64,000 bases of DNA from an uncultured Candidatus Saccharibacteria bacterium (GCA_964450735.1 CAYVDC010000003.1:40342-104341), one strand, 5' to 3'. Positions 632 to 51,124 are shown, counted from the first letter of the stretch. The notes: generated by a model from the letters alone, not told the origin. Made by a program: numbers and translations.

Positions 632-770
632 GCAATTATCAAGAGCGCGGGGAGAGTACTGACTCTACGATCCGCCAGCAACCAGTCAAATGACATGGTG
701 CTCCATTCAGCCCGCTTGGGGAGATAAGCTAGTCGCAAACTCTTCCGTATGGGAGAGTTTTATTTTTTAT
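632..770 (+). promoter_or_regulatory. SAM-I (S-box) riboswitch with terminator expression platform, in the metK 5' leader
   Basis: The sequence UUAUCAAGAGCGCGGGGAG...GCAACC...GGUGCUCCAUUCAGCCC...GGGGAGAUAAG matches the SAM-I core (P1 UUAUC/GAUAA, GCAACC, GGUGCU). The hairpin ctcttcc-gtat-gggagag plus T-run at 740-770 acts as the terminator. It lies immediately upstream of metK. Confidence 0.75.
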
Positions 771-37382: not shown

Positions 37383-37620
37383 AAAAATCGCCTCTTCAAA
37401 TTAACTGTTAATTAATTTGCAGGGGCGATGTTTCATCGCGGTGCCACCCTACTTTTTCGACTCATTTATAGCTATATCGGGCAAACCCGCAAAGTTCTAC
37501 GCCCAGAATGGGTTTCTTCTTTGAGCCTCCCCCGTGTCAGCGGGATCGTTGGTATATAGATACTAGCAAGTGTCAAAGCCGAAAGCAAGCTTATGCTATA
37601 AGGGTTATTTCTATTGACAC
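37383..37620 (-). promoter_or_regulatory. T-box riboswitch leader of aspS with intrinsic terminator
   Basis: The - strand reads AGUAGGGUGGCACCGCG, matching the T-box consensus AAUUAGGGUGGNACCGCG. AGGG/CCCU (A1), GCGAUG/CAUCGC (A2) and a UGGCACC bulge form a textbook antiterminator. The terminator AUCGCCCCUGCAAAUUAA...UUAAUUUGAAGAGGCGAU plus UUUUUCUUUU ends 27 nt before the aspS ORF. Confidence 0.7.
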
Positions 37621-37641
37621 TAATATATAAATATGGTATAA
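37613..37641 (+). promoter_or_regulatory. consensus sigma70-type promoter
   Basis: TTGACA-17 nt-TATAAT, upstream of the lipoprotein gene at 37657. Confidence 0.55.
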
Positions 37642-37656
37642 TATACACAAGTTAGA

Positions 37657-38286
37657 TTGAATTCTTTTCCAAATATTGGTTTGGTTGCTAAAGCGGGATC
37701 GTCTCCCCTTTTGGTAACCAAATCAATCAATTCAGTTATGAAAACAAACATTATCATCGCAATCGCAGCCTTTTTGGTAACTCTTGCATCTTGCAGCAAA
37801 GAAAAAGAAATACTGCCGGCAAATGACCGCATCATCCTAACGCAAGCGCAGAAGGATTCACTATGGAATATCCATGTTGCGCCGAACGAAGTATGGCAGC
37901 TAAAAATAGTTGCTTCATACAAATCGCAAGGCAAAGTGGTTACTGAAACTTTTGCAGAAGGAGTTAGTGACAACGTTGGCAAAGTTGCTAACGGTACTGG
38001 CCCAAATGCAGAAAGAATAATTGGAAGGAATATCACATTCCCTTCCGGTAATCGCGTTATCTGCAATTTCTTAAATGATACAATTGGCACCGTGGGAACC
38101 GGACGTTTCTCTGGAACAATTCAAAATGGCAAATGGGCTGGACATGATTTTGGTATAAGCAATATTGAATACCGTGATGAAGATCATATTGTCTCTACAT
38201 CAGGATCATACGGTGGCGTATGCAACGGGCCTCAAGCCTTTACTATCATCCGCTTCGAGTGCATAAGAATTAAAAAAAGCTTCTAA
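37657..38286 (+). CDS. hypothetical lipoprotein (likely start MKTNIIIAIAAFLVTLASC at about 37738), a paralog of 50549..51070
   Basis: Lipobox LASC followed by SKEKEILP and a C-terminal C.GPQ...C motif shared with the 50549 ORF. Confidence 0.5.
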   Translation: MNSFPNIGLVAKAGSSPLLVTKSINSVMKTNIIIAIAAFLVTLASCSKEKEILPANDRIILTQAQKDSLWNIHVAPNEVWQLKIVASYKSQGKVVTETFAEGVSDNVGKVANGTGPNAERIIGRNITFPSGNRVICNFLNDTIGTVGTGRFSGTIQNGKWAGHDFGISNIEYRDEDHIVSTSGSYGGVCNGPQAFTIIRFECIRIKKSF

Positions 38287-38368
38287 GAGCTTTTATCTAA
38301 CATTATAGGAACCATTCATGTATTTGAATGGTTCCTTTTTTATTTCAAGTAATAAAAAAGGAGTCCCA

Positions 38369-39289
38369 TTACGGAACTCCAAGAGTGAATAAATCAATTA
38401 GATAGTCGGCTGATCCTGAAATCAGCGCAGTTCCCAGTATGAAGCAGACAAGTGCAATCGCGTTTCGTTTGGTAAATGGTTCTTTGAACCAAAATACTCC
38501 GATAACAATTGCAGCTAGAAAGCCAACTGAGCGTAAAGCAAGCGTATAGGATGTTTGCGCTTCTGTGTATGCAATCAACGTGAACGTAAAGGAAATTGCT
38601 TGGAATACGCCGAGAATCAAAAGTCCTTTGAGTTTTGTTGAAACTCGGATTAGTTGCGTGCGCTGCATTCTTTTGCTAAATGTTTGAGCAATGAGCGACA
38701 AGAATACAATTCCTGCAACAAACGTATTTGCCATGCTGTAAAATCCTGGCGATGAGGCCAGCGTAGCTACTTTGTCGAGTGAGGAAGTAAAAGCCATACA
38801 TGCTGCTGCTAGGATCATAAATATGATTGAGCGGTGGTATGTTATTTTTCCATTGTCGTCTTTTTTATCAATGAGCGATAGATACGTGCCGAACCCCATA
38901 ATTACGATGCCTACTCCTCCCGTGCGTGTTGGGAATTCGTGCAGCAAAAGCATCGAGCTAAACATGTTGAAGACGGGAAGGATGGAAATAATCGGTGTAA
39001 CGTGCGACATGTTGCCGATCCGAAGCGATTCATAATAAAAATAGAATTGAAACGGATAGACACAGCACACCACGATCAATGGCACCCAGAATTTCCAGGA
39101 CAAATGCAAGATGTCAGCCGGCATTTTCATTGAGCAAGCAAAGACAAGCACGATGGTCGGAATAATGGAGAACGCCTGTATGATGAATCCGATGGTGAGA
39201 TTTTGAAATTTCTCCGTCATCTTTTTTTCATATGGCCGTTTCCCCGCAGAGATGAGAGCAGCAATGACAGCGTAGGTTAGCCAGTTCAT
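38369..39289 (-). CDS. DMT-superfamily (EamA-like) membrane transporter
   Basis: About 10 TM helices arranged as two EamA-like halves. I chose the internal Met at 39289 as the start; the track ORF extends to 39367. Confidence 0.55.
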   Translation of the reverse strand: MNWLTYAVIAALISAGKRPYEKKMTEKFQNLTIGFIIQAFSIIPTIVLVFACSMKMPADILHLSWKFWVPLIVVCCVYPFQFYFYYESLRIGNMSHVTPIISILPVFNMFSSMLLLHEFPTRTGGVGIVIMGFGTYLSLIDKKDDNGKITYHRSIIFMILAAACMAFTSSLDKVATLASSPGFYSMANTFVAGIVFLSLIAQTFSKRMQRTQLIRVSTKLKGLLILGVFQAISFTFTLIAYTEAQTSYTLALRSVGFLAAIVIGVFWFKEPFTKRNAIALVCFILGTALISGSADYLIDLFTLGVP

Positions 39290-39440
39290 AGGTGGGATTT
39301 TGAAGTGAACAAATGTATATACACGAGTCTGTGCTCGCATACGTGCATTTGCCCACTTGTTTTTCAAAGTTGAGCGGTTTCAGTTGATACTAATATAGTT
39401 GCTTAGGTAAGTCAAATAAACTTAATGTAATATTAATATA

Positions 39441-41126
39441 CTAGGCTACTTCGTTCTGATAGCAAGATTCGCAGTAGATGATCTGCTTTGATTCGGGAGA
39501 ATATGAAGTCTCGAATTCATTTGGACATCCCTCGTTCATGCAGTGACGGTGCCAGAGCTTGCGCGGTGTACGTCGGTTCAGTCGATCACGGAATCGGCAT
39601 GGGAAGCATTGCTCTGGAAGCGGCATGTTTAGTTTTCGGTGGAGCATAAGTTCGTCCTGGGTAATTCTAAAAGCAGTAGCGCATGCAGTATGCAGCTTTT
39701 TGCTTTCTTCAGAATCCTGGGAGCTGCAGCTGATCGTTTGCTGTAGAATTGTGTCGTCAGTTTCAGCGATTGATTGCGGAATGTTTGAGTGTTCCAAGGT
39801 GATGGTGTAATTGCGATTGTCGCGGTCATGCCACTTCCAGCCTTTGGCGAGAACCTCTTCTTTTGTCATTGGGAAATAAAATTGAGCAACCGTTTCGTTG
39901 TATGCAAACGGTGAAATAGATGTCGGCATGAATTCTCCCCATTCGCCTGTCTGCTTCATGTGCTCAACAATTTTCTTGGTAAGCGCCTCATAGTCTTCTT
40001 TTGTATATTGTTTGTTGAGAATGCAGTATTTGTTTTTGTTTAATGCTACACAGCCAAAAAGATAATCACAGCTGAAGCAATTTTCTACATAGCGTGAATC
40101 TGAAATATTCCAGGTACGTGAACAGCCAATACTTCGTGCTGAATAGCCAATGCCTTCCATTTCATAATCAAGCTCGTTGAAGGCCATCTCGGTGACATCC
40201 ATGCAGTTTTTGACATGCCACGCGTCTTGGCAGTAGCTTGAATCTTCCGCATCGAACATGCAAAAGTTCGCTTTGCAGTTCTTTACGTCATCAATGTAGG
40301 AGCCAGTCGACTGCACGATCTTTTGGCCTTGATAATACTTTTTTGGCAATCCAAGCGAAAGTTCACTTTGTATTCTTTGTGCTTCTGCGATGTTTGCTCG
40401 TGAGAACGTGAATTCTGAAAGTCTCTTTTTGTATTCTTCTTTGCTGAGCTGTTCATTGAACCAGCAATACGACTTGCTGCGGAGATTCACACATCCGAAA
40501 CAGCTGATGCATCCCTTGCAGTCTTTGAGAAAATAGCTCTCCGTGCAATCAGAACAGTCGTCGAGATAGGCTGATCGAGAACAATTAGTACAGTTGATGC
40601 ATTCATAGAGGAGTTCTGATGTGAGCAAACGATGGCTGTCGATACATTCTTTGCTGCTGAAATAGAGCGAGCCGTACATGGAGTCTTCGCTCTGATCGGA
40701 ACCAAATACCATGTAGCAATTCTTTAGATCCTGGGATTGGTTGGTGTAGTCGCTGTTTACGCATCGTGGATGAGCAATGCTGAGCTTTGGTGTTCGTTCG
40801 CGAAGTTCTTTGAATTGATCGAAGAACGGCCGATTGAAATCGAAATCTGCACCGTATTGCAAACGATCCCAATCATCACTCCACCAACAGCTGGTGCAGT
40901 AAACGGGGCCTTTATAGTCAGGGTTGTAAATTGAAACCATCGGCGTTTCGCACTTGGTGCAATTTCGGCGATAGAGCTCCCACTCATTGCGATCTGAGAT
41001 GCGTCGCTGGTAGCGACAGTCAGGACAAAGAGTTGGTGCAGGCACACCGATCTTTTCATAGAAACTTATGTCATCAGCAGTCGGGCTGAAGTTGGTTCTG
41101 CATTGGGCGCAGGTAATTGCATTCAT
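39441..41126 (-). CDS. cysteine-rich zinc-ribbon paralog C (type I); the start is the internal Met MNAITCAQCRTNF
   Basis: Carries the same N- and C-terminal zinc-ribbon modules, CILNKQY, GEFMP...SPFAYNET, and ends ETSYSPESKQIIYCESCYQNEVA. Confidence 0.8.
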   Translation of the reverse strand: MNAITCAQCRTNFSPTADDISFYEKIGVPAPTLCPDCRYQRRISDRNEWELYRRNCTKCETPMVSIYNPDYKGPVYCTSCWWSDDWDRLQYGADFDFNRPFFDQFKELRERTPKLSIAHPRCVNSDYTNQSQDLKNCYMVFGSDQSEDSMYGSLYFSSKECIDSHRLLTSELLYECINCTNCSRSAYLDDCSDCTESYFLKDCKGCISCFGCVNLRSKSYCWFNEQLSKEEYKKRLSEFTFSRANIAEAQRIQSELSLGLPKKYYQGQKIVQSTGSYIDDVKNCKANFCMFDAEDSSYCQDAWHVKNCMDVTEMAFNELDYEMEGIGYSARSIGCSRTWNISDSRYVENCFSCDYLFGCVALNKNKYCILNKQYTKEDYEALTKKIVEHMKQTGEWGEFMPTSISPFAYNETVAQFYFPMTKEEVLAKGWKWHDRDNRNYTITLEHSNIPQSIAETDDTILQQTISCSSQDSEESKKLHTACATAFRITQDELMLHRKLNMPLPEQCFPCRFRDRLNRRTPRKLWHRHCMNEGCPNEFETSYSPESKQIIYCESCYQNEVA

Positions 41127-41182
41127 GGAGTAAGTATAGCGCGCTTCGCGGGTCTGTAAACTATCTAAGTCATATATACTAA

Positions 41183-41205
41183 AAAGTGTCATTTTTTGAC
41201 ACTTT
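41183..41205. promoter_or_regulatory. palindromic operator-like site AAAGTGTCA-ttttt-TGACACTTT in a divergent promoter region
   Basis: 9-bp perfect arms centred in the 95-nt gap between paralog C (-) and the wHTH-like gene (+). Confidence 0.4.
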
Positions 41206-41221
41206 ATGATATGGTTCAAAA

Positions 41222-42052
41222 ATGCTGTTTTCGAGAAATACGGGAGCGACAATTGAAGAATTGATTATCGAATCGCTTGGCGCACATGCTGTGACAGGCG
41301 CTACTCTTTTGGAGAAAATCAGGAAAACGCTTCCGAAAACGCCGAAAGAGACTTTTTACCGGATCCTCCGTTCCCTGCTTGAGCAGGAAGTTGTGACCAA
41401 GTATGGCATGCTCTATGGAGTGAATCGCCATTGGCTCAAACGCCTTTACCGTTTTAGTAAACCAAAACTCGATCTGACACAGCCAACAAACACTATGAGT
41501 GTACTATCTTTCGAGGAAGGAGATTCCATCACGTACACATTTAAAACACCCAACCTAATGGGAATTTACTGGGCACATCTGTATGATGCGGTGTTTGACC
41601 TTCACTATCCCCAAATACCGATTCTTATATTCCACCCACATGAATGGCTGATTCACACTCGCACTGACTCAGAAACTTTTTTCCTCAAACGTTTTTCCGA
41701 AGATCAGAAACGAGGTCTGTTTTCTATTGGCGGCTCAACTGAACTAGATACAGAATTTAAAAAGAAATGGGCAAACAAGTATCTCGAGGTTGCGACGGGT
41801 GCGTCATATGGATTAAAAAATACTGAGTACTTGAATGTTTTAGGCGACTTTATTTTCAAAGTTAAAGTGAGTGCGCGATTCGCAAAAGATATTGATGGGT
41901 TCTTCAGAAAATATAAAACAATCAATGACGACAACCGAGAAGAATTGATGTCCATCTGCAATCGTCCCGACAAAGTTAAAATGATCTTTACGAGATCGAA
42001 GAAAGAAGCGGATAAATGGCGAGCGAAGTGGAAGAAAGACTTCTTTATATAA
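41222..42052 (+). CDS. hypothetical protein with an N-terminal winged-helix-like region (possible transcription regulator)
   Basis: TGATLLEKIRKTLPKTPKETFYRILRSLLEQEVVTKYG resembles a wHTH. It is divergent from paralog C and convergent with paralog D, overlapping it by 8 nt. Confidence 0.4.
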   Translation: MLFSRNTGATIEELIIESLGAHAVTGATLLEKIRKTLPKTPKETFYRILRSLLEQEVVTKYGMLYGVNRHWLKRLYRFSKPKLDLTQPTNTMSVLSFEEGDSITYTFKTPNLMGIYWAHLYDAVFDLHYPQIPILIFHPHEWLIHTRTDSETFFLKRFSEDQKRGLFSIGGSTELDTEFKKKWANKYLEVATGASYGLKNTEYLNVLGDFIFKVKVSARFAKDIDGFFRKYKTINDDNREELMSICNRPDKVKMIFTRSKKEADKWRAKWKKDFFI

Positions 42053-43796
42053 CCTCTTTTTGGTAGCAGGATTCGCAATACACTTTTTCTGGTCGTTCTG
42101 TCGAATACGTTGTTTCAAATTCAACCGGACACTTTCCTGCATGGTCATGACTCGCCTCTTCGCACATACATGAACGCTGGTAGAGTTCCGGGCTATTTCG
42201 CCAATGAACTCGCTCCACATGTCGGCAGTTGAAGCACAATCGCGGCAGTGGCACATTCATTTGTCGGTAAAACTGCACTTCCTCTGGTGTAAGTCGAAAT
42301 GCTGTCATGCAGTTGGCTCCGCAGTCCTTGTTGTGGCTATTTTCTTCATGATGCATGCATTCAATCACTTCCTGAGTGATTTCGTCAGGCACATCGGCAA
42401 TGCTGTTAGGGAGATTTTTGGATGTTTTAGTAACCGTGTAATTTCTGGTGTCAGGAGTTCGCCAGTTAAATCCGAGTTCAAGTACTTCTTCTTTTGGAAT
42501 TGGAAAATACTCATATCCCTGTGATTCGTTGTAGCCATAGGCGCTAAACATCGGTGGGAAAAATTCTCCGTATTTGTAGACGCGCCCTTTTTCATCGGTG
42601 TACGGCATGTCGATCATGTGCTGAATGATTTTTGGTACCAATGCCTCGTATGCTTCCTTGGTGTATTGTTTATTCAAAATGCAGTACTGTTTGCTATGAA
42701 GTGCGATGCAGCCGAAGGTGTTGGATACCGTTCTGCAGTTGATGATGTATCTCGAATCCGCAGCTGTTAAGGAATCAACTGCAAAAAATGTTCTGTTCAT
42801 TCCGGAACCTGAACCGCTGATTTCATAGGCGAGCTCAATCCCCACTCCTGATGAAGTGAGATCCATTGAGTCCTTGATTGGATCATAAATAATACTCTGC
42901 GAGTGTGCGCAGTTTTGAGCGCCGTTGGAGAAGAAGCAGTTTCGAAGTTCAGATGCGTTGTAGAGATAGTCTCCAGTGCAGCCAAAGTCTTTCAGTCCAT
43001 GTCGAAAACGAACTGGCTGGCTTGTCCAAAAAGCTTCCGCACCTCCTCGAGCTTTTTGCAATCCTTTCCAAGTGTCTAACTTGAACTCTTGGATTTTCTT
43101 TGAGTATTCTTCTTTGGTATATGGCTGATTAAAAATATGATAGCTTTTGTTGCGCAAGTTGGTGCAGCCAAAACAGTCAGTACAACCAACGCAATCTTGG
43201 CTGAACCACACATCAGCACAGGCATTTAAATTGCGAGAAAAAGCTACTTTGTTGCAGTTGGTGCAGTTGATGGCCCAGTAGGTAAATTCACAGAGTTTGC
43301 AGTTGATTGTATCGAAACAGTTTTTGCTTTTCTGCAGGCTTACTCCGTAAGCGCTGTCTTCGGCATATCCAGCATCGAAGCAGAGATAGCAGTTTTTCAG
43401 ATCAATTCCGAGGCTGTATTCGCTGTTGACCTGATTTTGGTTAAGCGTATTGCTTGCTGGAACAACATCAAACAATTCCTTGAACTGCAGAAAAAACGGT
43501 TTTGAAAAGTCATAGTCCTTGCCATAGTCGAGCGGATCCCAGGCATCGCTTCCCCAATATTCCCGATCATACGCCGGCATCAGTGCGCTCGGAGGAACCA
43601 TGGAGAATATCTTCTTGCCAGTCGCCGCGCAGGTACGGCTATACAAATACCTAAAATTACGAAACGCCATGCGACGCATCGCACGGCATCTCCAGCACCA
43701 CGTCGGAGGAGGAACATTTATTTTCTGGTAGAACGAAGAATCATCGGGGGTGATGGTGAAGAAGGTTTTGCAGTTTTGGCAGGAAATGTTTTGCAT
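42045..43796 (-). CDS. cysteine-rich zinc-ribbon paralog D (type II; second N-terminal zinc knuckle lost)
   Basis: N-terminal CQNCKTFF...FYQKINVPPPTWCWRCRAMRR, then AATGKKIFS in place of C..C.K, then YDREYWGSDAWDP. The C-terminal ribbon is intact and the protein ends VYCESCYQKEVI. Confidence 0.8.
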   Translation of the reverse strand: MQNISCQNCKTFFTITPDDSSFYQKINVPPPTWCWRCRAMRRMAFRNFRYLYSRTCAATGKKIFSMVPPSALMPAYDREYWGSDAWDPLDYGKDYDFSKPFFLQFKELFDVVPASNTLNQNQVNSEYSLGIDLKNCYLCFDAGYAEDSAYGVSLQKSKNCFDTINCKLCEFTYWAINCTNCNKVAFSRNLNACADVWFSQDCVGCTDCFGCTNLRNKSYHIFNQPYTKEEYSKKIQEFKLDTWKGLQKARGGAEAFWTSQPVRFRHGLKDFGCTGDYLYNASELRNCFFSNGAQNCAHSQSIIYDPIKDSMDLTSSGVGIELAYEISGSGSGMNRTFFAVDSLTAADSRYIINCRTVSNTFGCIALHSKQYCILNKQYTKEAYEALVPKIIQHMIDMPYTDEKGRVYKYGEFFPPMFSAYGYNESQGYEYFPIPKEEVLELGFNWRTPDTRNYTVTKTSKNLPNSIADVPDEITQEVIECMHHEENSHNKDCGANCMTAFRLTPEEVQFYRQMNVPLPRLCFNCRHVERVHWRNSPELYQRSCMCEEASHDHAGKCPVEFETTYSTERPEKVYCESCYQKEVI

Positions 43797-43799
43797 AGA

Positions 43800-45236
43800 T
43801 TATTTTAGTAAGAAATCTATTTCACCCTTAAAAAGATTACTAAAATCTTGAGGCTTCTCTATTTTATCTGCGATTTTATCTGCGATTTCTCCCTTTAAAT
43901 CACCAATGGATTCACCAGACTTTTTTCTAGTTTGAAATTCAGTAAAAAGTAAGTTATTGAAGTCCTCATAATAATCTTCTAGTGCCTGTTTTTTTAGTTC
44001 GTGGAATCTGCTTTCTCCTAATGTAGTAAGTTTTGTATATTTTTGATTACTTTTTTCACTTGTAGCTACTTGGTCAATAATTATATGGTATGAGTCTCGA
44101 TACAAAGGATGACAAGTAAATAAAGTATTATAAATAGATAAATTTTCAATCCTCTCTTTAAATTTTTCTGTCCTAGTTACTCCCGAGCATGATATAAAAT
44201 TAAAGTCTTGTAAAAATCCCTTTTCCTTGCATTTATTTAAAATTCTACAAATACTACTTTCTTCAACTAAGCAGAGATTGTCTGTAAGCCCGATATCGCT
44301 TGGATCTGCCCCTAGCAGCATTGCAACTTCCTTCATTTTAAAACCACCGTTAAAACCATTACTATCGATATTTTTCCCATTTTCAATTCTGAAAACTTTT
44401 TGGGTTGGAAAATTTTTAGAAGAGTTTATTATAAACGGACTATGTGTCGCAATAAAAAACATTACTTTGTCATTCAGACTATTTTCAGTTATAAATGAAT
44501 CAATTAAGCCAGGTAATATTTTTTGAGCTTCAGGATGTAAGTTATTTTCAGGTTCTTCAATTAGCACAATTACCAGCTCCGGCTTTACTTCTTGAGCAGA
44601 CTTTAAGATTTGTTCAAAAATTCCGTTTAATCGCTCTAGTCGTTTAATTCCCTGAGCTAAATACTTAGGTTTTATTTTATTTCCATTTTGAAAAAAAGAT
44701 CTTGAAGGTGTTTCTTCGAAAGGGTCAACAGGGGTTTCAATTTTTACTTCAATTGGTTCAAGATTTAAATATATGGCTGATTGTTTAATTCTATTAAACA
44801 ATCTTGCCTCAACTCCACTTCCGGTGTTACGACTTGCCCCAATTCCTCTTCCAAAATTACGGGTTGCCTCTAGAGAATCAAAATTTACACTTTCAGCTTT
44901 TTTAATACTACCTAACGCTGTAGGAAAATCTTCAAAATCAGTATCAGCAACAAAATCTAATAACATGGTTCCAGTTATATTTATATTATTACCGTCAGAA
45001 ATAACTTTTTTAATCGTATTATGCTTTTCAAATACAATTTCTGACTCTTTTCCCCACATGAATGTGTTTAGTGCAGGTATTTTATTAATTCTTATTGATA
45101 ATAAAGCTAGTGCGTTTAGAACGCTAGTTTTTCCACTACCATTTTTCCCAACTAAATAGTTAACAAACTCAAGTGATTTGAATTCATTAACTCCTTGTAG
45201 GTTTTTTATGTTTTTAATTTTAAGATTGATAGCCAT
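43800..45236 (-). CDS. OLD/AAA15-type ABC ATPase, possibly with a degenerate C-terminal Toprim-like region
   Basis: Walker A LVGKNGSGKTSVLNAL, Walker B/D-loop VIVLIEEPENNLHP and H-loop ATHSP. The C-terminal LCLVEESS...ISCSGVT...HIIIDQ weakly resembles Toprim. It lies 3 nt from the flanking paralogs on each side. Confidence 0.7.
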   Translation of the reverse strand: MAINLKIKNIKNLQGVNEFKSLEFVNYLVGKNGSGKTSVLNALALLSIRINKIPALNTFMWGKESEIVFEKHNTIKKVISDGNNINITGTMLLDFVADTDFEDFPTALGSIKKAESVNFDSLEATRNFGRGIGASRNTGSGVEARLFNRIKQSAIYLNLEPIEVKIETPVDPFEETPSRSFFQNGNKIKPKYLAQGIKRLERLNGIFEQILKSAQEVKPELVIVLIEEPENNLHPEAQKILPGLIDSFITENSLNDKVMFFIATHSPFIINSSKNFPTQKVFRIENGKNIDSNGFNGGFKMKEVAMLLGADPSDIGLTDNLCLVEESSICRILNKCKEKGFLQDFNFISCSGVTRTEKFKERIENLSIYNTLFTCHPLYRDSYHIIIDQVATSEKSNQKYTKLTTLGESRFHELKKQALEDYYEDFNNLLFTEFQTRKKSGESIGDLKGEIADKIADKIEKPQDFSNLFKGEIDFLLK

Positions 45237-45239
45237 ATT

Positions 45240-46934
45240 TTATATTACTTCTCTCTGATAACACTCCTCACAATAAACCACCTCCTCCCTCCCCGCCTCA
45301 AACGATGACTTTACCTCTTTTCCGCACTTATCACATGTCCGATCATACAACCGAAATCCATTCAGCATTCTAATTCTCCCCATATGCCGGCAGTCAGGAC
45401 ATTCTCTTGGAACTGGAATTCCAAATCGCTTCAAGAGCTGCAGTTCGCCAACCACAATGCGATAAAATTTTCCACAATTGCATTTCAAGATTTCATCGGT
45501 AAAAGCATCTGGAATATCGTTGATGCTATCCGGAATATCCGCCAACTCAATTGTCTGCGTATAGTTCGGCACCGTCGGCTCGATCCATTTGAAACCACTT
45601 TCAAGAATTTCTTCTTTGTCCATCGGGAAATATTGTTCAGCAAATGATTCGTTGTACGCAAACGGTGAAATGTCATACGGCATAAAGTCGCCGTATTTCC
45701 AGACGCGACCTTTGGAGTCCACATACGGATTGGCGTTCATATCCGCAATAATTTTTTCACGAAGGGCAAAATAGTCTTCTTTGGTGTATTGCTTGTTGAG
45801 GATGCAGTATTCTTTCTTGCGCAAATTCACGCAGCCGAAACAGTTTGTTGAACCCAAGGTAAAGATTGAATACTCTACATCGCGGATATTACCCCAGCTC
45901 ATAGCGCTGTATTTGACCTCATACGCCCCTTCGCCCGTATTGGTGACATCTATGCAGCGTTCGACGTTATTACCCCAGTCAGTGATGTCGTACGAGTCTT
46001 TGACGGTTGGCAGCGTAATCATCTGCACATAGGCGCTGTCTTCCGCTCCAGCCTGGTAGCATTGTTTGGCGTTTTTGGCATGAAAGACGTATTCGCCGGT
46101 TGAGTTATGGTTCATGCGAGCATGCACATATCGAATCGGAAACTTCTTCCAGAATTTGTAAATCTCTTCGCGGATTTTTACATGACTTGAATGTTTATCA
46201 AGTTCCATCTCAGCGATCTTTTTGTCGTATTCTTCTTTGGAATATTGTTCGTTGAAAATACAATGGCTCTTGTTTCGCAAATTCACGCAACCAAAACAGT
46301 CAGTACAGCCAATGCATTCCTTGGAGTACCACATGCCGACAGAGCTTGAGCAGTTATTTGAAAAGTAACATCGAGAACTGCCAGAGCCGCCGATCGTTCC
46401 GTAGTTGAGCTCGACATGCATTCCCATGAGCAGATCGGCAGAATCTTTGACATAGGCAAGCGTTGAGCCGTAGTAGGTATTCTCGCAAAAGTCTGCGGTA
46501 AATATCAGATGCGAGTCTTTGATGCTGCCAGCGTGATTGATGTAGTCGCTATTTACCACAGTCGCGTAGTCGGTCACTTTTTGCATCCAAATAGTTTTGG
46601 ATTGCAGTTCGTAGAGCTGATCAAAGAAATTTCTATTCGGATCATAGTCGAGATATGTATCGCTCGGATCCCAATTGTCGCTCCACCAACAGGCGCTGCA
46701 GTAGACTCGCAATCCCCGTTCTGGTGAGAATATTGAAATTATTTTTTTGTTGCACAGTTCGCATTCGCGGCGGTAAAAGGTGCGTTCGTTGCGGAACATC
46801 AGGCGACGTTGAAAACGGCATTCAACGCAAAAGGTCGGTGCCGGTACATTCAAGGAATGGTAAAAATTGAAATCGTCGGAGTCGATAGTGAAGGAGGTTT
46901 TGCAGTTTTGGCAGGTCCGGGTTTCCATATACAT
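45240..46934 (-). CDS. cysteine-rich zinc-ribbon paralog E (type I)
   Basis: N-terminus METRTCQNCKTSFTIDSDDFNFYHSLNVPAPTFCVECRFQRR, and ends with a C-terminal ribbon ...VYCEECYQREVI. Confidence 0.8.
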   Translation of the reverse strand: MYMETRTCQNCKTSFTIDSDDFNFYHSLNVPAPTFCVECRFQRRLMFRNERTFYRRECELCNKKIISIFSPERGLRVYCSACWWSDNWDPSDTYLDYDPNRNFFDQLYELQSKTIWMQKVTDYATVVNSDYINHAGSIKDSHLIFTADFCENTYYGSTLAYVKDSADLLMGMHVELNYGTIGGSGSSRCYFSNNCSSSVGMWYSKECIGCTDCFGCVNLRNKSHCIFNEQYSKEEYDKKIAEMELDKHSSHVKIREEIYKFWKKFPIRYVHARMNHNSTGEYVFHAKNAKQCYQAGAEDSAYVQMITLPTVKDSYDITDWGNNVERCIDVTNTGEGAYEVKYSAMSWGNIRDVEYSIFTLGSTNCFGCVNLRKKEYCILNKQYTKEDYFALREKIIADMNANPYVDSKGRVWKYGDFMPYDISPFAYNESFAEQYFPMDKEEILESGFKWIEPTVPNYTQTIELADIPDSINDIPDAFTDEILKCNCGKFYRIVVGELQLLKRFGIPVPRECPDCRHMGRIRMLNGFRLYDRTCDKCGKEVKSSFEAGREEVVYCEECYQREVI

Positions 46935-46937
46935 ACT

Positions 46938-48677
46938 CTACAGGACTTCCTTCTGATAGCAAGTTTCGCAATACACCTTTTCTGGCCGCTCAGGCGCATA
47001 AGCAGTTTCAAATTCCACCGGACATTTCTGTTTGTGGTCGTGATTTGTCTCAGTACACATACATGAACGGTGCCATAGTTTCCATGGCAGGATTCGCTCA
47101 AGGCGTTTAAAATATCTGCAGTTTGGGCAAAGCCGAGGCAGGGCTAAGTTAAATTTCTGCAACAGTTGTAATTCTTCCTTGGTAACTCGGAAAGCCCCTG
47201 AACAAATATGATTACACTCTTCTGAGTGCTCACACGGCAATGATTCTTGAGTTATAGATTCGGGAATATCTTTGACGTGTTTCGGAAGCGAATCAAACCC
47301 AACTGTACCCTGGTGCCCGCGCTTCGGCTGATCTATCCAGGTATATCCTTGTTTGAGTGCCTCTTCTTTGCTTAGTGGAAAAAGCTCAAAGAGGTTTGTC
47401 TGATTGTATGGAAATCGGGATAGTTCGATTGGAAAATATTCACCATAAAAGTAAGTCCTGCCTTTAGTGTCAATATATGGCACTTTTTTCATCTGCTCAA
47501 TTATCTTGTTGCGGAGTTCATAGTACTCAGCTTCAGAATATTGCTTATTTAGAATGCAGAATTTTTTATGCTTAAGGCCAGTACAGCCGAACAAGTTCTT
47601 AACATGATTGGTGCCGTCGCAATAGGTAATTTCCCGTACGTCGCCGACATCAAAGCAAAAAAGTGCATGGTCGACTCCTCTTCCAGCAACAGAAAATTCG
47701 TATGACAACTCTGCTCTTCCTGACATTGAAAAGTCACAAGAATCTACTACCGGTGATACGGTGATCTGTGCGTAGCGAATATTTTCTGAGTCGTTGATAG
47801 CAAAGGAATGGAATACATTTTTTGAGTTAAAAATAGTGTCCCCTGTAACATTTTCGGATTGCAGGATTGTCGCATATCGATGAATTGCATTGGTATACAT
47901 ATCAGCATATTCTGTTTTCAGTTTTGAGAGCGAATCAAAGCCGCCATCAAGCTCTTCTGTAATCTTTTGCTTGTATTCTTCCTGTGTAAGTTGCTGATTG
48001 CGAAATACATATGATTTATTTCGTAAATTCGACGACATGAAGCAATTGGTACAATTCACGCAATCAAAAAGGAAATGCGATTCCACGCACGCTTGTGATC
48101 GGGTTAGAAAAGAGGAGCCATAGTTTTCGTGCGACGCAACTAATTCATAGCAATTTTCATTGCCGCTAAAATTCGCCGAGTCCATGCACATCCGGTTGCC
48201 GTTCTCGCTTCCCCATGAATAGTACACGTGTTCACTTTTGGTTACTCCATAGGATAGATAAATATTGCTTGATTTGTATACATAATTTGAGAAAACAATA
48301 TTCTCTCCGTTGTTGTTAGTATGCGCCAAATGCAATTGCGGTACGCGCTTCATGAGATCGTGAAATTGTTCAAAAAACGGCTTAGAGAAATCATAGTCCG
48401 CGCTGTATTCACTGGCGTCCCAATCATCTTTGAAATAGCAATCGGTACAGTACACCGTAAATGGTGAATCTGGGGCATACGATGAAGCCATATCTGTGCC
48501 GCATTTTGAACAGGAACGCTTAAAGAGCGAACGCTGGTTTCTGGAAGCCGTGCGGCGTTCCATTCTGCAGTCGGGGCAAAATGTAGGAGGTGGAACGTTT
48601 ACTTTTGCGTAAAAAGCAAAATCTTCAGGAAAAATAGTGAAGTCGGTTTTGCAGTTTTGGCAGGTTCGGGGTTCCAT
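46938..48677 (-). CDS. cysteine-rich zinc-ribbon paralog F (type I); start at the internal MEPRTCQNCKTDF
   Basis: Same architecture, ending ETAYAPERPEKVYCETCYQKEVL. It sits 5 nt after the paralog G stop. Confidence 0.8.
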   Translation of the reverse strand: MEPRTCQNCKTDFTIFPEDFAFYAKVNVPPPTFCPDCRMERRTASRNQRSLFKRSCSKCGTDMASSYAPDSPFTVYCTDCYFKDDWDASEYSADYDFSKPFFEQFHDLMKRVPQLHLAHTNNNGENIVFSNYVYKSSNIYLSYGVTKSEHVYYSWGSENGNRMCMDSANFSGNENCYELVASHENYGSSFLTRSQACVESHFLFDCVNCTNCFMSSNLRNKSYVFRNQQLTQEEYKQKITEELDGGFDSLSKLKTEYADMYTNAIHRYATILQSENVTGDTIFNSKNVFHSFAINDSENIRYAQITVSPVVDSCDFSMSGRAELSYEFSVAGRGVDHALFCFDVGDVREITYCDGTNHVKNLFGCTGLKHKKFCILNKQYSEAEYYELRNKIIEQMKKVPYIDTKGRTYFYGEYFPIELSRFPYNQTNLFELFPLSKEEALKQGYTWIDQPKRGHQGTVGFDSLPKHVKDIPESITQESLPCEHSEECNHICSGAFRVTKEELQLLQKFNLALPRLCPNCRYFKRLERILPWKLWHRSCMCTETNHDHKQKCPVEFETAYAPERPEKVYCETCYQKEVL

Positions 48678-48682
48678 ATCAA

Positions 48683-50401
48683 TTAGAGGATTTCTTTTTG
48701 GTAACACTGTTCACAATATACTTTTTCAGGACGGTTTGGCGAGTAGGTAGTTTCAAAGGTATTTGAGCAGGCTCCAGAATGGCTGTGGCCGGAAATATCA
48801 CACGAGCAGGTTCGAGTATGCAGCTTCGGCACATTTCGAAGCGCCAATCGCTCATAATGACGACAGTTAGGGCAAAGGTTTGGCAGCGGAATATTCATTC
48901 GTTTGCAGAAATCAAATTCAGTCTCAATCATGCGGAATGCGCCCGTACATTCATGTGTGCAGGATTCTTTGTGAGCACATTCAATAACCTGATCAAGAAT
49001 AGTTTTGTCAGCATCTTGGATATTGTCGGCAAGATTTTCTGCTGGAATTGTAATCGTGTATTGCTGTTTCGCAATCGGATACCAAACTAATCCTTTCTCA
49101 GTCGCCTCAGTTTCAGTTAGCGGAAAGAATTCATGCGCCTGAGTCGCATAATATGGAAATGGGGACATACTTGATGGGAAAAACTCGCCATATTCCCCTG
49201 TTGTTTCCATATGTTCGATAATTTTTGGAACTAATGCCTCATATTCTTCCTTTGAATATTGCTTGTTTAAAATGCAATATTTTTTATTGCGGAGTGACAC
49301 GCAGCCAAAAAGATATGAAGCATTGCTGCAGTGAACTGAATACTCCATAAATGAAGCATTTGGATATCCCTCTGCGCAGAATTTCACATTCGAAACGCCA
49401 GTACCCATAACCATGGATTCGTAGACGAGCTCTGCGTTGTCTCCGTAGTTGCTGTAATCGTAACAGTCTTTGACCGGGCCAGTCAGAATATTTTGGATGT
49501 ATTTGCTGTCTTCGGTTCCACGAACACGATAGCAATCTTTTGCATTCTTGGATTCGTAAATATAGTCGCCGGAAACATTTACATTCTGGCCGCCATGCAT
49601 GAACTTGTGCGGAAATGTTTTCCAATGCTTGTACGCTTCTTCTCGTGCAGTATCAAACGATTTCCGTGAACCAAGATTCATTTCAGCTATTTTCGCAAAG
49701 TATTCTTCTTTTGAATACGGCTGATTAAAAATATGATACGACTTGCTTCTCAAACCAATTGAGCCGAAGCAATCATTGCATCCGACGCAGTCTTTAGAAA
49801 GTGTCATTTCGTGACACTTTTCACAATCTACTGAAAAGAAGGTCCTGTAGCATTCGATCGTATTTATATTGCCATAGCTGAGCTCGCAGCGATTGGTCAT
49901 GTGGCTGTCGAAACACTGTTTCGAGCCTTGATCCCAGATAACATAGGCAGAATCCTCGGTAAATGACGCTCCACGAACAAGGTAGCAATTCTTGATATCG
50001 TTTGCATTAGTACAATACTGAGAATTGACCGCGTTCATAATCGGATGCGCTGGCAGTGGAACAGAATGAAATAATTCCTGCCACTGCTCAAAAAACGGTC
50101 GGTTGAAATCAAAATCACGGCCATGATCCATTGGATCCCAGGCATCAGACATCCAATATTCTTTGTCGTAAATTTTTACCGGGCTTTCTTCAGGATACAA
50201 AGAAAAAATCTTCTCGCCAGTTCGCTCATCGGTTTTCTTGAAAAGATGCCAGTCGTTACGCCATGAGAGACGACGTTTAAGACGGCATTCAGGACAAAGC
50301 GTTGGCGGAGGAACTTGGATTTTGGAATAGAAATCAAAGTCCTCTGCGAGAATATCAAAAGTAGTATTGCAGTTCGCACATGCGACTGAAGCGGTTTCCA
50401 T
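48683..50401 (-). CDS. cysteine-rich zinc-ribbon paralog G (type II)
   Basis: N-terminal CANCNTTF...FYSKIQVPPPTLCPECRLKRR, then ERTGEKIFS with no second knuckle, then YDKEYWMSDAWDP. The C-terminal ribbon is intact. Confidence 0.8.
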   Translation of the reverse strand: METASVACANCNTTFDILAEDFDFYSKIQVPPPTLCPECRLKRRLSWRNDWHLFKKTDERTGEKIFSLYPEESPVKIYDKEYWMSDAWDPMDHGRDFDFNRPFFEQWQELFHSVPLPAHPIMNAVNSQYCTNANDIKNCYLVRGASFTEDSAYVIWDQGSKQCFDSHMTNRCELSYGNINTIECYRTFFSVDCEKCHEMTLSKDCVGCNDCFGSIGLRSKSYHIFNQPYSKEEYFAKIAEMNLGSRKSFDTAREEAYKHWKTFPHKFMHGGQNVNVSGDYIYESKNAKDCYRVRGTEDSKYIQNILTGPVKDCYDYSNYGDNAELVYESMVMGTGVSNVKFCAEGYPNASFMEYSVHCSNASYLFGCVSLRNKKYCILNKQYSKEEYEALVPKIIEHMETTGEYGEFFPSSMSPFPYYATQAHEFFPLTETEATEKGLVWYPIAKQQYTITIPAENLADNIQDADKTILDQVIECAHKESCTHECTGAFRMIETEFDFCKRMNIPLPNLCPNCRHYERLALRNVPKLHTRTCSCDISGHSHSGACSNTFETTYSPNRPEKVYCEQCYQKEIL

Positions 50402-50481
50402 GCCTCAAATATACCACGAAATGCCCCTTTGTCTGTAAGATTTCTTTTTGACTACCGTCTCTATCTATGTTCCCGTTCTCT

Positions 50482-50522
50482 GACATTTTGTAAGGTTAAG
50501 CAAGCAAATCAAGGGTTATTTT
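50482..50522. repeat. 12-bp perfect inverted repeat AAGGTTAAGCAA-N17-TTGCTTAACCTT in a divergent intergenic region
   Basis: Seen directly in the sequence. It lies between the paralog G start (-) and the lipoprotein gene (+). Confidence 0.45.
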
Positions 50523-50548
50523 GCTTAACCTTATAAACCATACCTCTT

Positions 50549-51070
50549 ATGACCCAGACTAACCGCCTATTTGCCGCCTGTATTTTTACTGCCCTCTTGT
50601 CCATCTCTGTATGCAGTAAAGAGTCCGATATTGTACCGAACTACGCCCGCACTATTGTTGCGCCTGCTAACACTCAACAGACGACCAAAGAAATTTGGGA
50701 TGTAGTACTAATTGTTACATACCAGGGTACTGTTGATACTGTTGCGTTAGATTCAACAACCGATATCGTGCCGCTGCTTTCAGGTTCACTAACAAATCCG
50801 AACAAACAAATTGGACATTGTTTTCGCTTCCCCATTGTAAAAGTGTGCGCAGCATACACAACCGAAAACCAGAATGTAAATTCAGTTACCGGCAATGTGC
50901 TCTCTGGCCCATACAAAGGCAAATCATTTGTTATGCACAATATTCACACCACTAACGAAAGTTTGATCACCACAACAAGCGCCACAACTCTTTCTATTTG
51001 CGGCGGCCCACAGAAAGTAACAGATGTATATTTCATCTGTAAAAAAAGAACTACGCACGTAACCCAATAA
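50549..51070 (+). CDS. hypothetical lipoprotein, paralog of 37657..38286
   Basis: Lipobox ISVC followed by SKESDIVP and a C-terminal SICGGPQ...C motif shared with the 37657 ORF. Confidence 0.5.
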   Translation: MTQTNRLFAACIFTALLSISVCSKESDIVPNYARTIVAPANTQQTTKEIWDVVLIVTYQGTVDTVALDSTTDIVPLLSGSLTNPNKQIGHCFRFPIVKVCAAYTTENQNVNSVTGNVLSGPYKGKSFVMHNIHTTNESLITTTSATTLSICGGPQKVTDVYFICKKRTTHVTQ

Positions 51071-51090
51071 TGTTTCTAAATAAATTTTAA

Positions 51091-51119
51091 AAGGCTGCCC
51101 TCTCGGACAGCCTTTTTTC
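51091..51119 (+). terminator. rho-independent terminator
   Basis: aaggctgccc-tctc-ggacagcctt followed by tttttt. Confidence 0.6.
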
Positions 51120-51124
51120 ATGTA

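What the first reader, a model, noticed from the sequence alone, without database searches (positions are those of the whole stretch)
42045..50401. Tight five-gene operon: paralog G - paralog F - paralog E - OLD/AAA15-type ABC ATPase - paralog D
On the - strand the five genes are separated by 3-5 nt (stop 48683 / start 48677; stop 46938 / start 46934; stop 45240 / start 45236; stop 43800 / start 43796), so they are almost certainly co-transcribed and translationally coupled. The embedded 478-aa protein has the GKNGSGKT Walker A, VIVLIEEPENNLHP and ATHSP motifs of the AAA15/OLD-family ABC ATPases. Those ATPases typify phage-defence and abortive-infection modules such as OLD, Gabija GajA, PARIS AriA and Septu PtuA. 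The C-terminal half has a weak Toprim-like pattern (LVEESS...SGVT...IIIDQ) that lacks a clean DxD. An OLD-like ATPase wedged between multiple Cys-rich zinc-ribbon paralogs is not an arrangement I know from described defence systems. The paralogs could act as sensor or effector partners, or the ATPase could serve the family in another role.
Basis: partly seen in the sequence, partly recalled or inferred. Interest (0 to 1): 0.8.

Follow-up and report, generated by a model that had tools for sequence, protein, structure and literature searches.

The report
Strain-specific OLD-like ATPase in paralog array
The five tightly packed genes are real, but the ATPase is a lone, horizontally acquired OLD-type ATPase-Toprim gene sitting in a swappable slot of a Paceibacteria-wide array of zinc-ribbon proteins, not the core of a new multi-gene defence system.

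Summary
Five minus-strand ORFs (G, F, E, ATPase, D) are separated by 5, 3, 3 and 3 nt, and the 478-aa protein carries the quoted motifs.

The ATPase is an ABC (AAA_15) ATPase fused to a divergent OLD-like Toprim domain. Its closest solved folds are Thermus OLD and GajA. A profile-profile comparison links its C-terminus, at 99.8% probability, to proteins carrying the Pfam OLD-like_TOPRIM domain.

The ATPase is not a partner of the Cys-rich paralogs:
- Its composition is foreign: GC 31% and GC3 20%, against 42-45% in the neighbouring genes.
- About 16 distinct loci carry a full-length family member (27-34% identity, mostly Bacteroidota). In each it is a solitary gene, with no paralog nearby and no conserved neighbour.
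- Three related Paceibacteria genomes keep the same TrpRS-to-AspRS paralog array without it. One has E directly next to the 276-aa gene. One has two different AT-rich genes between E and D. One has ThsB-TIR plus 8xMP after E.

The paralogs belong to a very large Patescibacteria-only family of zinc ribbons plus a beta-solenoid, with no known function.

Best reading: a Class-1-like OLD defence-type cargo gene in a recombination hotspot. Interest is moderate to low.

The parts
48683..50401 (-). Paralog G (572 aa). First gene of the cluster, with zinc ribbons and a beta-solenoid. Its second N-terminal CxxC ribbon is degenerate.
   Evidence: ORF; alignment A1. The segment 46915-51124 is absent from the close relative L006.
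46938..48677 (-). Paralog F (579 aa from the ATG at 48677; an alternative GTG start at 48707 gives 589 aa).
   Evidence: Weak Pfam zf_Tbcl and zf_Tbcl_2 hits.
45240..46934 (-). Paralog E (564 aa), the most conserved copy. Orthologues run from 96% down to about 50% identity across Paceibacteria.
43800..45236 (-). Solitary OLD-like protein (478 aa): an ABC (AAA_15) ATPase fused to a divergent Toprim domain. Compositionally foreign, strain-specific cargo.
   Evidence: Pfam and PADLOC hits. GC 30.8% and GC3 20.3%. Foldseek top hits 6p74 (Ts OLD) and GajA. Missing from L006, L007 and L191.
45126..45149 (-). Walker A motif GKNGSGKT (residues 30-37 of the ATPase).
   Evidence: Translation. G30, G35 and K36 are invariant in family alignment A2.
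44532..44576 (-). Walker B / D-loop region VIVLIEEPENNLHPE (residues 221-235).
   Evidence: E227, E228, P229, E230, L233, H234 and P235 are invariant in A2. This is the stretch matched by the AriA, PtuA and GajA models.
44436..44450 (-). H-loop ATHSP (residues 263-267).
   Evidence: T264, H265, S266 and P267 are invariant in A2.
43803..44351 (-). Divergent OLD-like Toprim domain (residues about 296-478). Its motifs are LGADPSD, LVEESS, IIIDQ and ALEDYY.
   Evidence: The model shows a beta-alpha-beta-alpha-beta-alpha-beta topology. hhalign gives 99.8% probability and E 1.2e-27 over 176 columns against a group with the consensus IVEGxSD / VVLxD / SxEEYYP. 8 of 54 members of that group hit Pfam OLD-like_TOPRIM.
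42045..43796 (-). Paralog D (583 aa), last gene of the cluster. Its stop overlaps the 3' end of the convergent 276-aa gene by 8 nt.
   Evidence: It is 96.5% identical at nucleotide level to the D copy in L191, with about 1.05 kb at the 3' end scoring 100%, while the flanks are 76-87% identical. It is absent from L006.
50408..50435 (-). Sigma-70-like promoter candidate (CAGACA, 16 nt, TG-TATATT) just upstream of the G start codon.
   Evidence: This is a consensus match only; promoter-like sites in the region are not more frequent than in shuffled sequence.
41222..42052 (+). Conserved 276-aa gene that closes the cluster. It is convergent with D and divergent from paralog C.
   Evidence: 94% identical in L006, 75% in L007 and 78% in L191, always next to the C-type paralog. 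No Pfam hit.
39441..41252 (-). Paralog C, outside the five-gene cluster but part of the same TrpRS-to-AspRS array.
   Evidence: 95% identical in L006.

Best explanation
The cluster is a segment of a lineage-typical array of paralogous zinc-ribbon/beta-solenoid genes. In this Paceibacteria (Patescibacteria) lineage the array lies between trpS/trpR and aspS. A single foreign gene has been placed into the slot between paralogs E and D.

That gene encodes a stand-alone OLD-family-type protein: an N-terminal ABC ATPase and a C-terminal divergent Toprim domain. This is the architecture of Class 1 OLD nucleases.

Shown:
- The gene order and the tight spacing.
- The domain assignment.
- The foreign base composition.
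- The solitary context of every family member examined.
- The absence or replacement of the gene in the orthologous arrays of three related genomes.

Inferred:
- The ATPase is transcribed as a passenger of the array's transcript, from a promoter upstream of G.
- It acts on its own as a homo-oligomer. ATP-driven engagement of the ABC heads would gate the Toprim domain to nick or cut invading or host DNA, as in P2/Ts/Vibrio OLD and GajA. That makes it an accessory anti-phage or anti-plasmid gene.
- It keeps equivalents of only three of the six Ts OLD catalytic residues (E377, D431 and E480). It may therefore be a one-metal or weak nuclease, or only a DNA binder.
- The paralogs are not its partners. 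Their conserved sequences provide the homologous flanks across which cargo is exchanged between strains.
For: 1. Domain identity.
- Pfam AAA_15 (56 bits) and AAA_21 (53 bits).
- PADLOC hits only through the generic ATPase motifs.
- AlphaFold2 model with pLDDT 81. Foldseek top PDB hits are Ts OLD 6p74 (8.9e-13) and GajA.
- A profile of the C-terminal domain finds only 186 cluster representatives among 1.84 billion proteins.
- The more distant of these have the consensus LLGxSxxDL..NFLIVEGxSD..VVLxD..SxEEYYP. 8 of 54 hit Pfam OLD-like_TOPRIM.
- hhalign to that group gives 99.8% probability, E 1.2e-27.

2. Foreign origin.
- GC 30.8% and GC3 20.3%, against 42-45% and 42-53% for all neighbours.
- The nearest relatives are only 30-35% identical and, where named, mostly Bacteroidota.

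3. Solitary gene elsewhere.
- Contexts in Nonlabens, Mucilaginibacter, Flavobacterium, Segetibacter, Subsaxibacter and Lutibacter, in six further full-length metagenome loci, and around P0002 and P0003, show no paralog and no conserved neighbour.

4. Orthologous arrays without it.
- L006 (about 90% nucleotide identity) is collinear but lacks window 42049-45240 (ATPase plus D).
- L191 has G'-F'-E(94%)-[119 aa + 198 aa, GC 28%]-D(97%).
- L007 has ThsB_TIR plus 8xMP after E.
- L190 has an array of at least nine paralogs with no ATPase.

5. Recombination hotspot.
- About 1.05 kb at the 3' end of D is 100% identical to L191, while the flanks are 76-87% identical.

6. Class definitions and the catalytic residues of Ts OLD come from PMC12392090 and PMC7049728.
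Against: - The gene sits with 3-nt spacers on both sides and in the same orientation as the paralogs, so co-expression is likely and a local functional link cannot be excluded by comparison alone.
- In L006 the ATPase and D are missing together, so the two could have arrived as one unit.
- No experiment shows a defence function for this family.
- Three of the six Ts OLD catalytic residues are not conserved: the +4 Asp, the second Asp of DxD, and Ser (Ala in this protein).
- At least one OLD-family class works outside defence: archaeal Cran1, in cell-cycle progression (PMC12796447, title and abstract seen).
Confidence: 0.7

Rival explanations
1. One reading: the ATPase and the Cys-rich paralogs form one new multi-gene defence system. 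The paralogs would act as sensors or effectors and the ATPase as the motor.
For: Same strand, 3-5 nt spacers and probable co-transcription. The ATPase is of the type used in Gabija, Septu, PARIS and OLD.
Against: - No co-occurrence anywhere else. None of the roughly 180 loci fetched through the ATPase (about 16 with a full-length family member) has a paralog within the flanks held, up to 8 kb a side.
- Orthologous arrays lack the ATPase.
- The ATPase is compositionally foreign.
- The paralogs are conserved at about 50% identity across many Parcubacteria lineages and number in the thousands, unlike patchy defence genes.
- No PADLOC model hits the paralogs.
Confidence: 0.06
2. The paralog array is itself a modular immune-like locus. 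Each conserved zinc-ribbon/beta-solenoid protein would be a scaffold or sensor, and the slots between them would hold interchangeable effectors: OLD-like ATPase-Toprim here, TIR plus 8xMP in L007, and a small protein plus a membrane protein in L191.
For: In three genomes the slot downstream of E holds different, tightly packed, co-oriented genes. The window and L191 cargoes are AT-rich, and the window and L007 cargoes have defence-type domains.
Against: - Other slots hold metabolic-type genes: aldo-keto reductase, AAA_33 kinase, peptidase M17 and APH.
- Many arrays have no cargo at all.
- High conservation of the paralogs argues for a core cellular role.
- Defence cargo accumulating between conserved core genes is a known hotspot pattern (background knowledge, not tested here) and needs no functional link.
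Confidence: 0.1
3. The ATPase-Toprim protein is not a defence gene. It would be an accessory DNA-maintenance, repair or cell-cycle factor, as reported for the archaeal OLD-class protein Cran1. Alternatively it is a catalytically dead remnant.
For: The Toprim active site is incomplete: the +4 Asp, the second Asp of DxD and the Ser are lacking. In Nonlabens the homologue lies among housekeeping genes rather than in an obvious island.
Against: - The family is rare and sporadically distributed: 49 cluster representatives at E<=1e-30 in 1.84 billion proteins, and five full-length copies among the best 80 loci kept from 185,579 species genomes.
- It shows strain-level presence or absence and a foreign composition.
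- These features fit an accessory conflict gene, not a housekeeping one.
- The ORF is intact with all ATPase motifs invariant.
Confidence: 0.12

Closest known systems
Class 1 OLD family nucleases (phage P2 Old, Thermus scotoductus OLD PDB 6p74, Vibrio cholerae Class 1 OLD)
   Same: [quoted passage not shown] It is encoded as a single isolated gene in the homologues' genomes. 6p74 is the best structural match. Class definitions are from PMC12392090 and PMC7049728.
   Different: - Shorter: 478 aa against 525 for Ts OLD.
- The insert in the ATPase domain is modelled as a single helix (141-156) with low-confidence flanks, not a four-helix dimerisation domain.
- The Toprim motif is VEE-S-S-I instead of VEGxxD, D-Q-V instead of DxD, and A-L-E instead of S-x-E.
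- No direct Pfam OLD-like_TOPRIM hit.
Gabija GajA (Class 2 OLD) with GajB
   Same: ATPase plus Toprim fold. GajA structures are ranks 2-4 in Foldseek, and the PADLOC GajA models hit the Walker B region.
   Different: No UvrD-like GajB gene is adjacent, here or in any homologue locus. The protein is about 100 aa shorter.
PARIS (AriA ATPase plus AriB DUF4435/Toprim; fused AriAB variants)
   Same: The best PADLOC scores are to the AriA models (1.5e-15). A fused ATPase-Toprim layout exists in AriAB. One distant relative of the C-terminal domain has a sub-threshold DUF4435 hit.
   Different: The hits cover only residues about 170-290, the generic ATPase motifs. There is no separate AriB gene. The AriAB model matches only the ATPase part.
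Septu PtuA and retron-associated PtuA ATPases
   Same: Similar sequence scores over the ATPase core.
   Different: No HNH PtuB gene and no reverse transcriptase or ncRNA nearby. PtuA has no Toprim domain.
Defence or accessory-gene hotspots flanked by conserved core genes
   Same: One chromosomal slot (after paralog E, between trpS and aspS) carries different cargo in related strains: OLD-like ATPase, TIR plus 8xMP, two small AT-rich genes, or nothing. A recent recombination tract lies in the flanking gene D.
   Different: The flanks are themselves members of a tandem paralog family, in an ultra-small Patescibacteria genome. No integrase, tRNA or terminal repeats are present.

Membership tests
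OLD family (any class) | N-terminal ABC-type ATPase with Walker A, Walker B and H-loop | tested here: met
   AAA_15 at 56.4 bits (cut-off 32.1) and AAA_21 at 53.2 bits (cut-off 27). GKNGSGKT, IEEPE and THSP are invariant across 31 family members.
OLD family (any class) | C-terminal Toprim domain | tested here: met
   There is no direct Pfam or PDB sequence hit. However, the model has Toprim-like beta-alpha topology. A profile search and hhalign (99.8% probability, E 1.2e-27) link it to a group with the motifs IVEGxSD / VVLxD / SxEEYYP, 8 of 54 of which hit PF20469 OLD-like_TOPRIM.
OLD family (any class) | Complete two-metal catalytic set (Ts OLD E377, D381, D431, D433, S478, E480; PMC7049728) | tested here: not met
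   By motif alignment, E325 (with E326), D388 and E420 are present. The +4 Asp is Ile, the second Asp of DxD is Val, and the Ser is Ala in this protein (Ser in most family members). The alignment is by motif, not by superposed structures.
Class 1 OLD | Single isolated gene, with no conserved partner | tested here: met
   There is no conserved neighbour among six homologue loci compared all-against-all. Contexts are solitary.
Class 1 OLD | Helical dimerisation domain inserted in the ATPase domain | tested here: inconclusive
   The region 98-160 is short and mostly low-confidence, with one helix at 141-156. No oligomer was modelled.
Gabija (Class 2 OLD) | UvrD/PcrA-like helicase gene (gajB) immediately downstream | tested here: not met
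   The downstream gene is paralog D. No helicase lies next to any homologue.
Retron-associated (Class 3) OLD | Adjacent reverse transcriptase and msr/msd ncRNA | tested here: not met
   No RT ORF in the cluster. Rfam finds no ncRNA in the region.
PARIS (Class 4 OLD) | AriA ATPase with a separate or fused DUF4435-type AriB | tested here: inconclusive
   The AriA models hit at 1.5e-15 but only over generic motifs, and the AriAB model matches residues 215-293 only. There is no DUF4435 hit in this protein.
Septu | PtuA ATPase with an adjacent HNH nuclease PtuB | tested here: not met
   There is no HNH gene. NCBIfam PtuA scores 28 bits against a cut-off of 500.
RecF / SbcC / Rad50 housekeeping ABC ATPases | Score above the curated family cut-off | tested here: not met
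   recf 30 bits against 172; sbcc 14 against 478; Rad50 15 against 700.
Cys-rich paralog family (zf_Tbcl / CxxC-x17-CxxC containing, Patescibacteria) | Length of about 565 aa, N- and C-terminal CxxC...CxxC ribbons, a central repeat module containing FGC..L..K.YCILNKQY.KEEY, and orthologues in Parcubacteria | tested here: met
   Seven window copies align over their full length. More than 6,600 homologues were found; every hit that carries a source name is Patescibacteria or unclassified 'bacterium'. Pfam zf_Tbcl_2 and TIGR04272 give partial hits. The fold is generic beta-solenoid only.

The most novel reading that the evidence does not exclude
The tandem zinc-ribbon/beta-solenoid paralogs of Paceibacteria may be more than passive flanks. 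They could be conserved scaffolds of a modular immune-like locus whose inter-paralog slots recruit interchangeable effectors: OLD-like ATPase-Toprim, TIR plus 8xMP, or a small protein plus a membrane protein. On that reading the ATPase would act downstream of, or together with, paralog D or E.
Probability: 0.1. Interest if true: 0.75.

Novelty: new variant of a known kind. Interest (0 to 1): 0.33.

Why it matters
This removes a tempting false lead. Operon-like packing in a compact Patescibacteria genome does not establish a functional system, and the ATPase-paralog pairing is a one-off.

Three modest results remain:
- A rare, uncharacterised clade of short single-gene OLD-type ATPase-Toprim proteins with a reduced catalytic site. 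It could be informative about the minimal requirements of OLD nucleases.
- A concrete example of a cargo-exchange hotspot in an ultra-small genome, where little is known about defence.
- A very large Patescibacteria-specific family of multi-copy zinc-ribbon/beta-solenoid proteins with no known function. This family is the more interesting open question at this locus.

Tried and rejected
- PADLOC, Pfam and NCBIfam on the paralogs gave only partial zinc-ribbon hits and no defence model.
- Direct sequence tests of the ATPase C-terminus failed: Pfam on 14 members (one hit at 0.063), a PDB profile search (nothing), and hhalign against a five-sequence OLD-like Toprim set (E 0.013, probability 3%). 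The link came only through the exhaustive profile search and a larger intermediate alignment.
- A local jackhmmer run over the 117 ATPase hits reached a protein with a sub-threshold DUF4435 hit, but not the proteins with confirmed PF20469 hits.
- Viral contigs (IMG/VR) hold no full-length ATPase family member and no paralog. A phage origin has no support.
- There are no direct or inverted terminal repeats around the ATPase gene, no tRNA and no integrase, so the insertion mechanism is not identified.
- The promoter and terminator scans are not above shuffled expectation for promoters and give only candidates.
- Literature searches found no description of the paralog family.
- The RecF/SbcC housekeeping assignment was considered and rejected on curated cut-offs.

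Full report
**Observation.** The ORF table and the junction sequences confirm five co-directional minus-strand genes.

| Gene | Coordinates | Length |
|---|---|---|
| G | 48683-50401 | 572 aa |
| F | 46938-48677 | 579 aa |
| E | 45240-46934 | 564 aa |
| ATPase | 43800-45236 | 478 aa |
| D | 42045-43796 | 583 aa |

- The spacers between them are 5, 3, 3 and 3 nt.
- G, F, E and D are paralogs at 34-45% identity.
- Three more copies lie in the window: C at 39441-41252 (-), and A and B at 7904-9571 and 9579-11297 (+).
- A promoter-like site with an extended -10 element lies just upstream of G (50435-50408). No convincing terminator lies at the internal junctions. One transcript is therefore plausible.
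- Tight spacing is the norm in this genome. 10 of 34 other same-strand junctions have 6 nt or less, or overlap. Packing alone says little about shared function.

**The ATPase.**
- Pfam assigns AAA_15 and AAA_21.
- PADLOC gives 133 weak hits (AriA, PtuA, GajA and others). For the models listed, the best-scoring stretches are mostly the Walker B region and otherwise lie within the ATPase domain.
- NCBIfam scores for RecF, SbcC and Rad50 are far below their cut-offs.
- An AlphaFold2 model built on 31 homologues has pLDDT 81. Its best PDB matches are Thermus scotoductus OLD (6p74) and then GajA.

**The ATPase C-terminal domain (residues about 296-478).**
- The model shows beta-alpha-beta-alpha-beta-alpha-beta topology, with acidic residues at the ends of the first and third strands (LVEE, IIID).
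- Direct sequence tests failed.
- An exhaustive profile search of 1.84 billion representatives found 186 proteins.
- The more distant of these have the consensus LLGxSxxDL..NFLIVEGxSD..VVLxD..SxEEYYP. 8 of the 54 scanned hit Pfam OLD-like_TOPRIM.
- They align with this family at 99.8% hhalign probability, E 1.2e-27, over 176 columns.

**Catalytic residues.** The Ts OLD catalytic set is E377, D381, D431, D433, S478 and E480 (PMC7049728).
- The window protein keeps equivalents of E377 (E325, with E326 beside it), D431 (D388) and E480 (E420).
- It lacks the +4 Asp (Ile here), the second Asp of DxD (Val here) and the Ser (Ala here; Ser in most relatives).
- Nuclease competence is therefore uncertain.

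**Is the ATPase tied to the paralogs? No.**

*Composition.* The ATPase gene has GC 30.8% and GC3 20.3%. Every neighbour has 42-45% and 42-53%.

*Relatives.*
- Apart from its own exact copy, which was also recovered on a 1.7-kb Logan contig, its nearest relatives are only 30-35% identical.
- The full-length members found among GTDB species genomes are all Bacteroidota: Flavobacterium, Segetibacter, Mucilaginibacter, Subsaxibacter and Lutibacter. Nonlabens adds another.
- Other named hits include Acidobacteriota, a cyanobacterium and a Bathyarchaeota MAG.

*Context of the relatives.*
- In those loci, in six further full-length metagenome loci, and around the two closest homologues P0002 and P0003, the gene stands alone.
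- tblastn with all seven paralogs finds nothing in any of the roughly 180 ATPase-relative loci.
- An all-against-all comparison of neighbours finds no conserved partner.

*The orthologous array in related genomes.*
- L006 (about 90% nucleotide identity) is collinear with the window from dnaB/trpS to aspS/cysS. It lacks exactly 42049-45240 (ATPase plus D), 46915-51124 (F, G and a lipoprotein ORF) and 37555-39440. E abuts the conserved 276-aa gene directly.
- L191 (GCA_964532495.1) has the full order: trpS, trpR, a 71-aa ORF, G', F', E (94%), D (97%). Between E and D it carries two unrelated genes of 119 and 198 aa with GC 28% in place of the ATPase.
- L007 carries ThsB-TIR (62 bits) plus an 8xMP membrane protein (148 bits) directly after E. 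It also has an AAA_33 kinase and an aldo-keto reductase before E.
- A 729-kb Patescibacteria scaffold (L190) has an array of at least nine paralogs, interrupted only by a peptidase M17 gene and followed by an APH kinase.

*Conclusion.* The slot downstream of E is a cargo slot. The ATPase is one of several alternative occupants.

*Recent recombination.* About 1.05 kb at the 3' end of D is 100% identical between the window and L191. The adjacent genes are 76-87% identical. This indicates recent recombination at the locus. No terminal repeats, tRNA or integrase mark the insertion.

**The paralogs.**
- More than 6,600 homologues were found. Every hit that carries a source name is Patescibacteria/Parcubacteria or unclassified "bacterium". 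The E type is conserved at about 50% identity across many candidate phyla.
- None occur in IMG/VR.
- The E model (pLDDT 85, pTM 0.86) shows N- and C-terminal zinc ribbons around a beta-solenoid. An internal duplication is visible as repeats spaced 456 nt apart.
- No defence model matches them, and I found no literature on the family.
- Their function stays unknown. Their high conservation and copy number argue for a core cellular role rather than a defence role.

**Comparison with known systems.** OLD nucleases are divided into four classes (PMC12392090):
- Class 1: single gene.
- Class 2: GajA with GajB.
- Class 3: retron-associated.
- Class 4: PARIS.

This protein has the Class 1 architecture and a solitary genomic habit. 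It has no helicase, RT/ncRNA, HNH or separate DUF4435 partner. It differs from characterised Class 1 enzymes in being shorter, in lacking a recognisable four-helix dimerisation insert, and in having a reduced Toprim active site. I file it as a new variant within the OLD family, not as a new kind of system.

**Verdict.**
- The domain call is supported.
- The proposed ATPase-paralog system is not supported.
- Best explanation, at confidence 0.7: a stand-alone, horizontally acquired OLD-type accessory (probably defence) gene riding in a recombination hotspot formed by a paralog array.
- Most novel reading still open, at about 0.1: the array is a modular immune-like locus with exchangeable effectors.

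Noticed in passing
L191:9037-9995, L007:8820-9768 and window 43800-45236: The same slot, directly downstream of paralog E, holds different cargo in three related genomes. L191 has a 119-aa protein plus a 198-aa membrane-type protein (GC 28%, no family hit). L007 has ThsB-TIR plus the octameric membrane protein 8xMP. The window has the OLD-like ATPase. It looks like a small defence or accessory hotspot in a Patescibacteria genome.
   Followed up: partly
window 42045-43100 against L191:10700-11752: About 1.05 kb at the 3' end of paralog D is 100% identical between the window and a genome whose neighbouring genes are only 76-87% identical. This implies very recent recombination or transfer confined to this gene.
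   Followed up: partly
window 50549-51070 (+) and 37657-38286 (+): Two lipoprotein-like ORFs (173 and 209 aa, with lipobox-like LASC and SVCS) are paralogs at 27% identity (E 2e-17). Both lie in segments absent from the close relative L006. No Pfam hit.
   Followed up: partly
window 37555-39440: A further strain-specific segment relative to L006. It carries an EamA-family transporter (38369-39367, -) and the 209-aa lipoprotein ORF.
   Followed up: partly
window 41222-42052 (+): A 276-aa gene with no Pfam hit is conserved (75-94%) next to, and divergent from, the C-type paralog in all four related genomes. In another Paceibacteria contig a TrmB-family regulator occupies a similar position next to a paralog. 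It may be a regulator of the paralog.
   Followed up: no
window 633-730 (+): A SAM riboswitch (RF00162, 47 bits, above the gathering score) upstream of the ORF at 793-1851.
   Followed up: no
window 50487-50537: A 17-nt inverted repeat (94% complementary, 17-nt spacer) in the divergent intergenic region between paralog G and the 173-aa lipoprotein ORF. It could be an operator or a hairpin.
   Followed up: no
window 42649/43105, 45772/46228 and equivalents in F and G: Each paralog contains an internal duplication spaced 456 nt (152 aa) apart. It carries the FGC..L..K.YCI(L/F)N.QY.KEEY motif, so the family arose from a duplicated module.
   Followed up: partly
L188:2724-4976 and L189:2647-4935: In two other Paceibacteria contigs, VirD4/TraG-like coupling ATPases (DUF87/TrwB_AAD_bind) carry a C-terminal zf_Tbcl_2 zinc ribbon of the kind found in the paralogs. 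They lie within a few kb of a paralog.
   Followed up: no
L190:1-18849: A 729-kb Patescibacteria scaffold carries at least nine tandem copies of the paralog family within 19 kb. The array size therefore varies widely between lineages: 2 in L006 and 7 in this 64-kb window.
   Followed up: partly
L192:1720-2181: The C-terminally most similar ATPase homologue (P0003) is followed by an EVE (PUA-like) domain gene on the opposite strand. Such domains are often seen near restriction or defence genes (background knowledge, not tested here).
   Followed up: no
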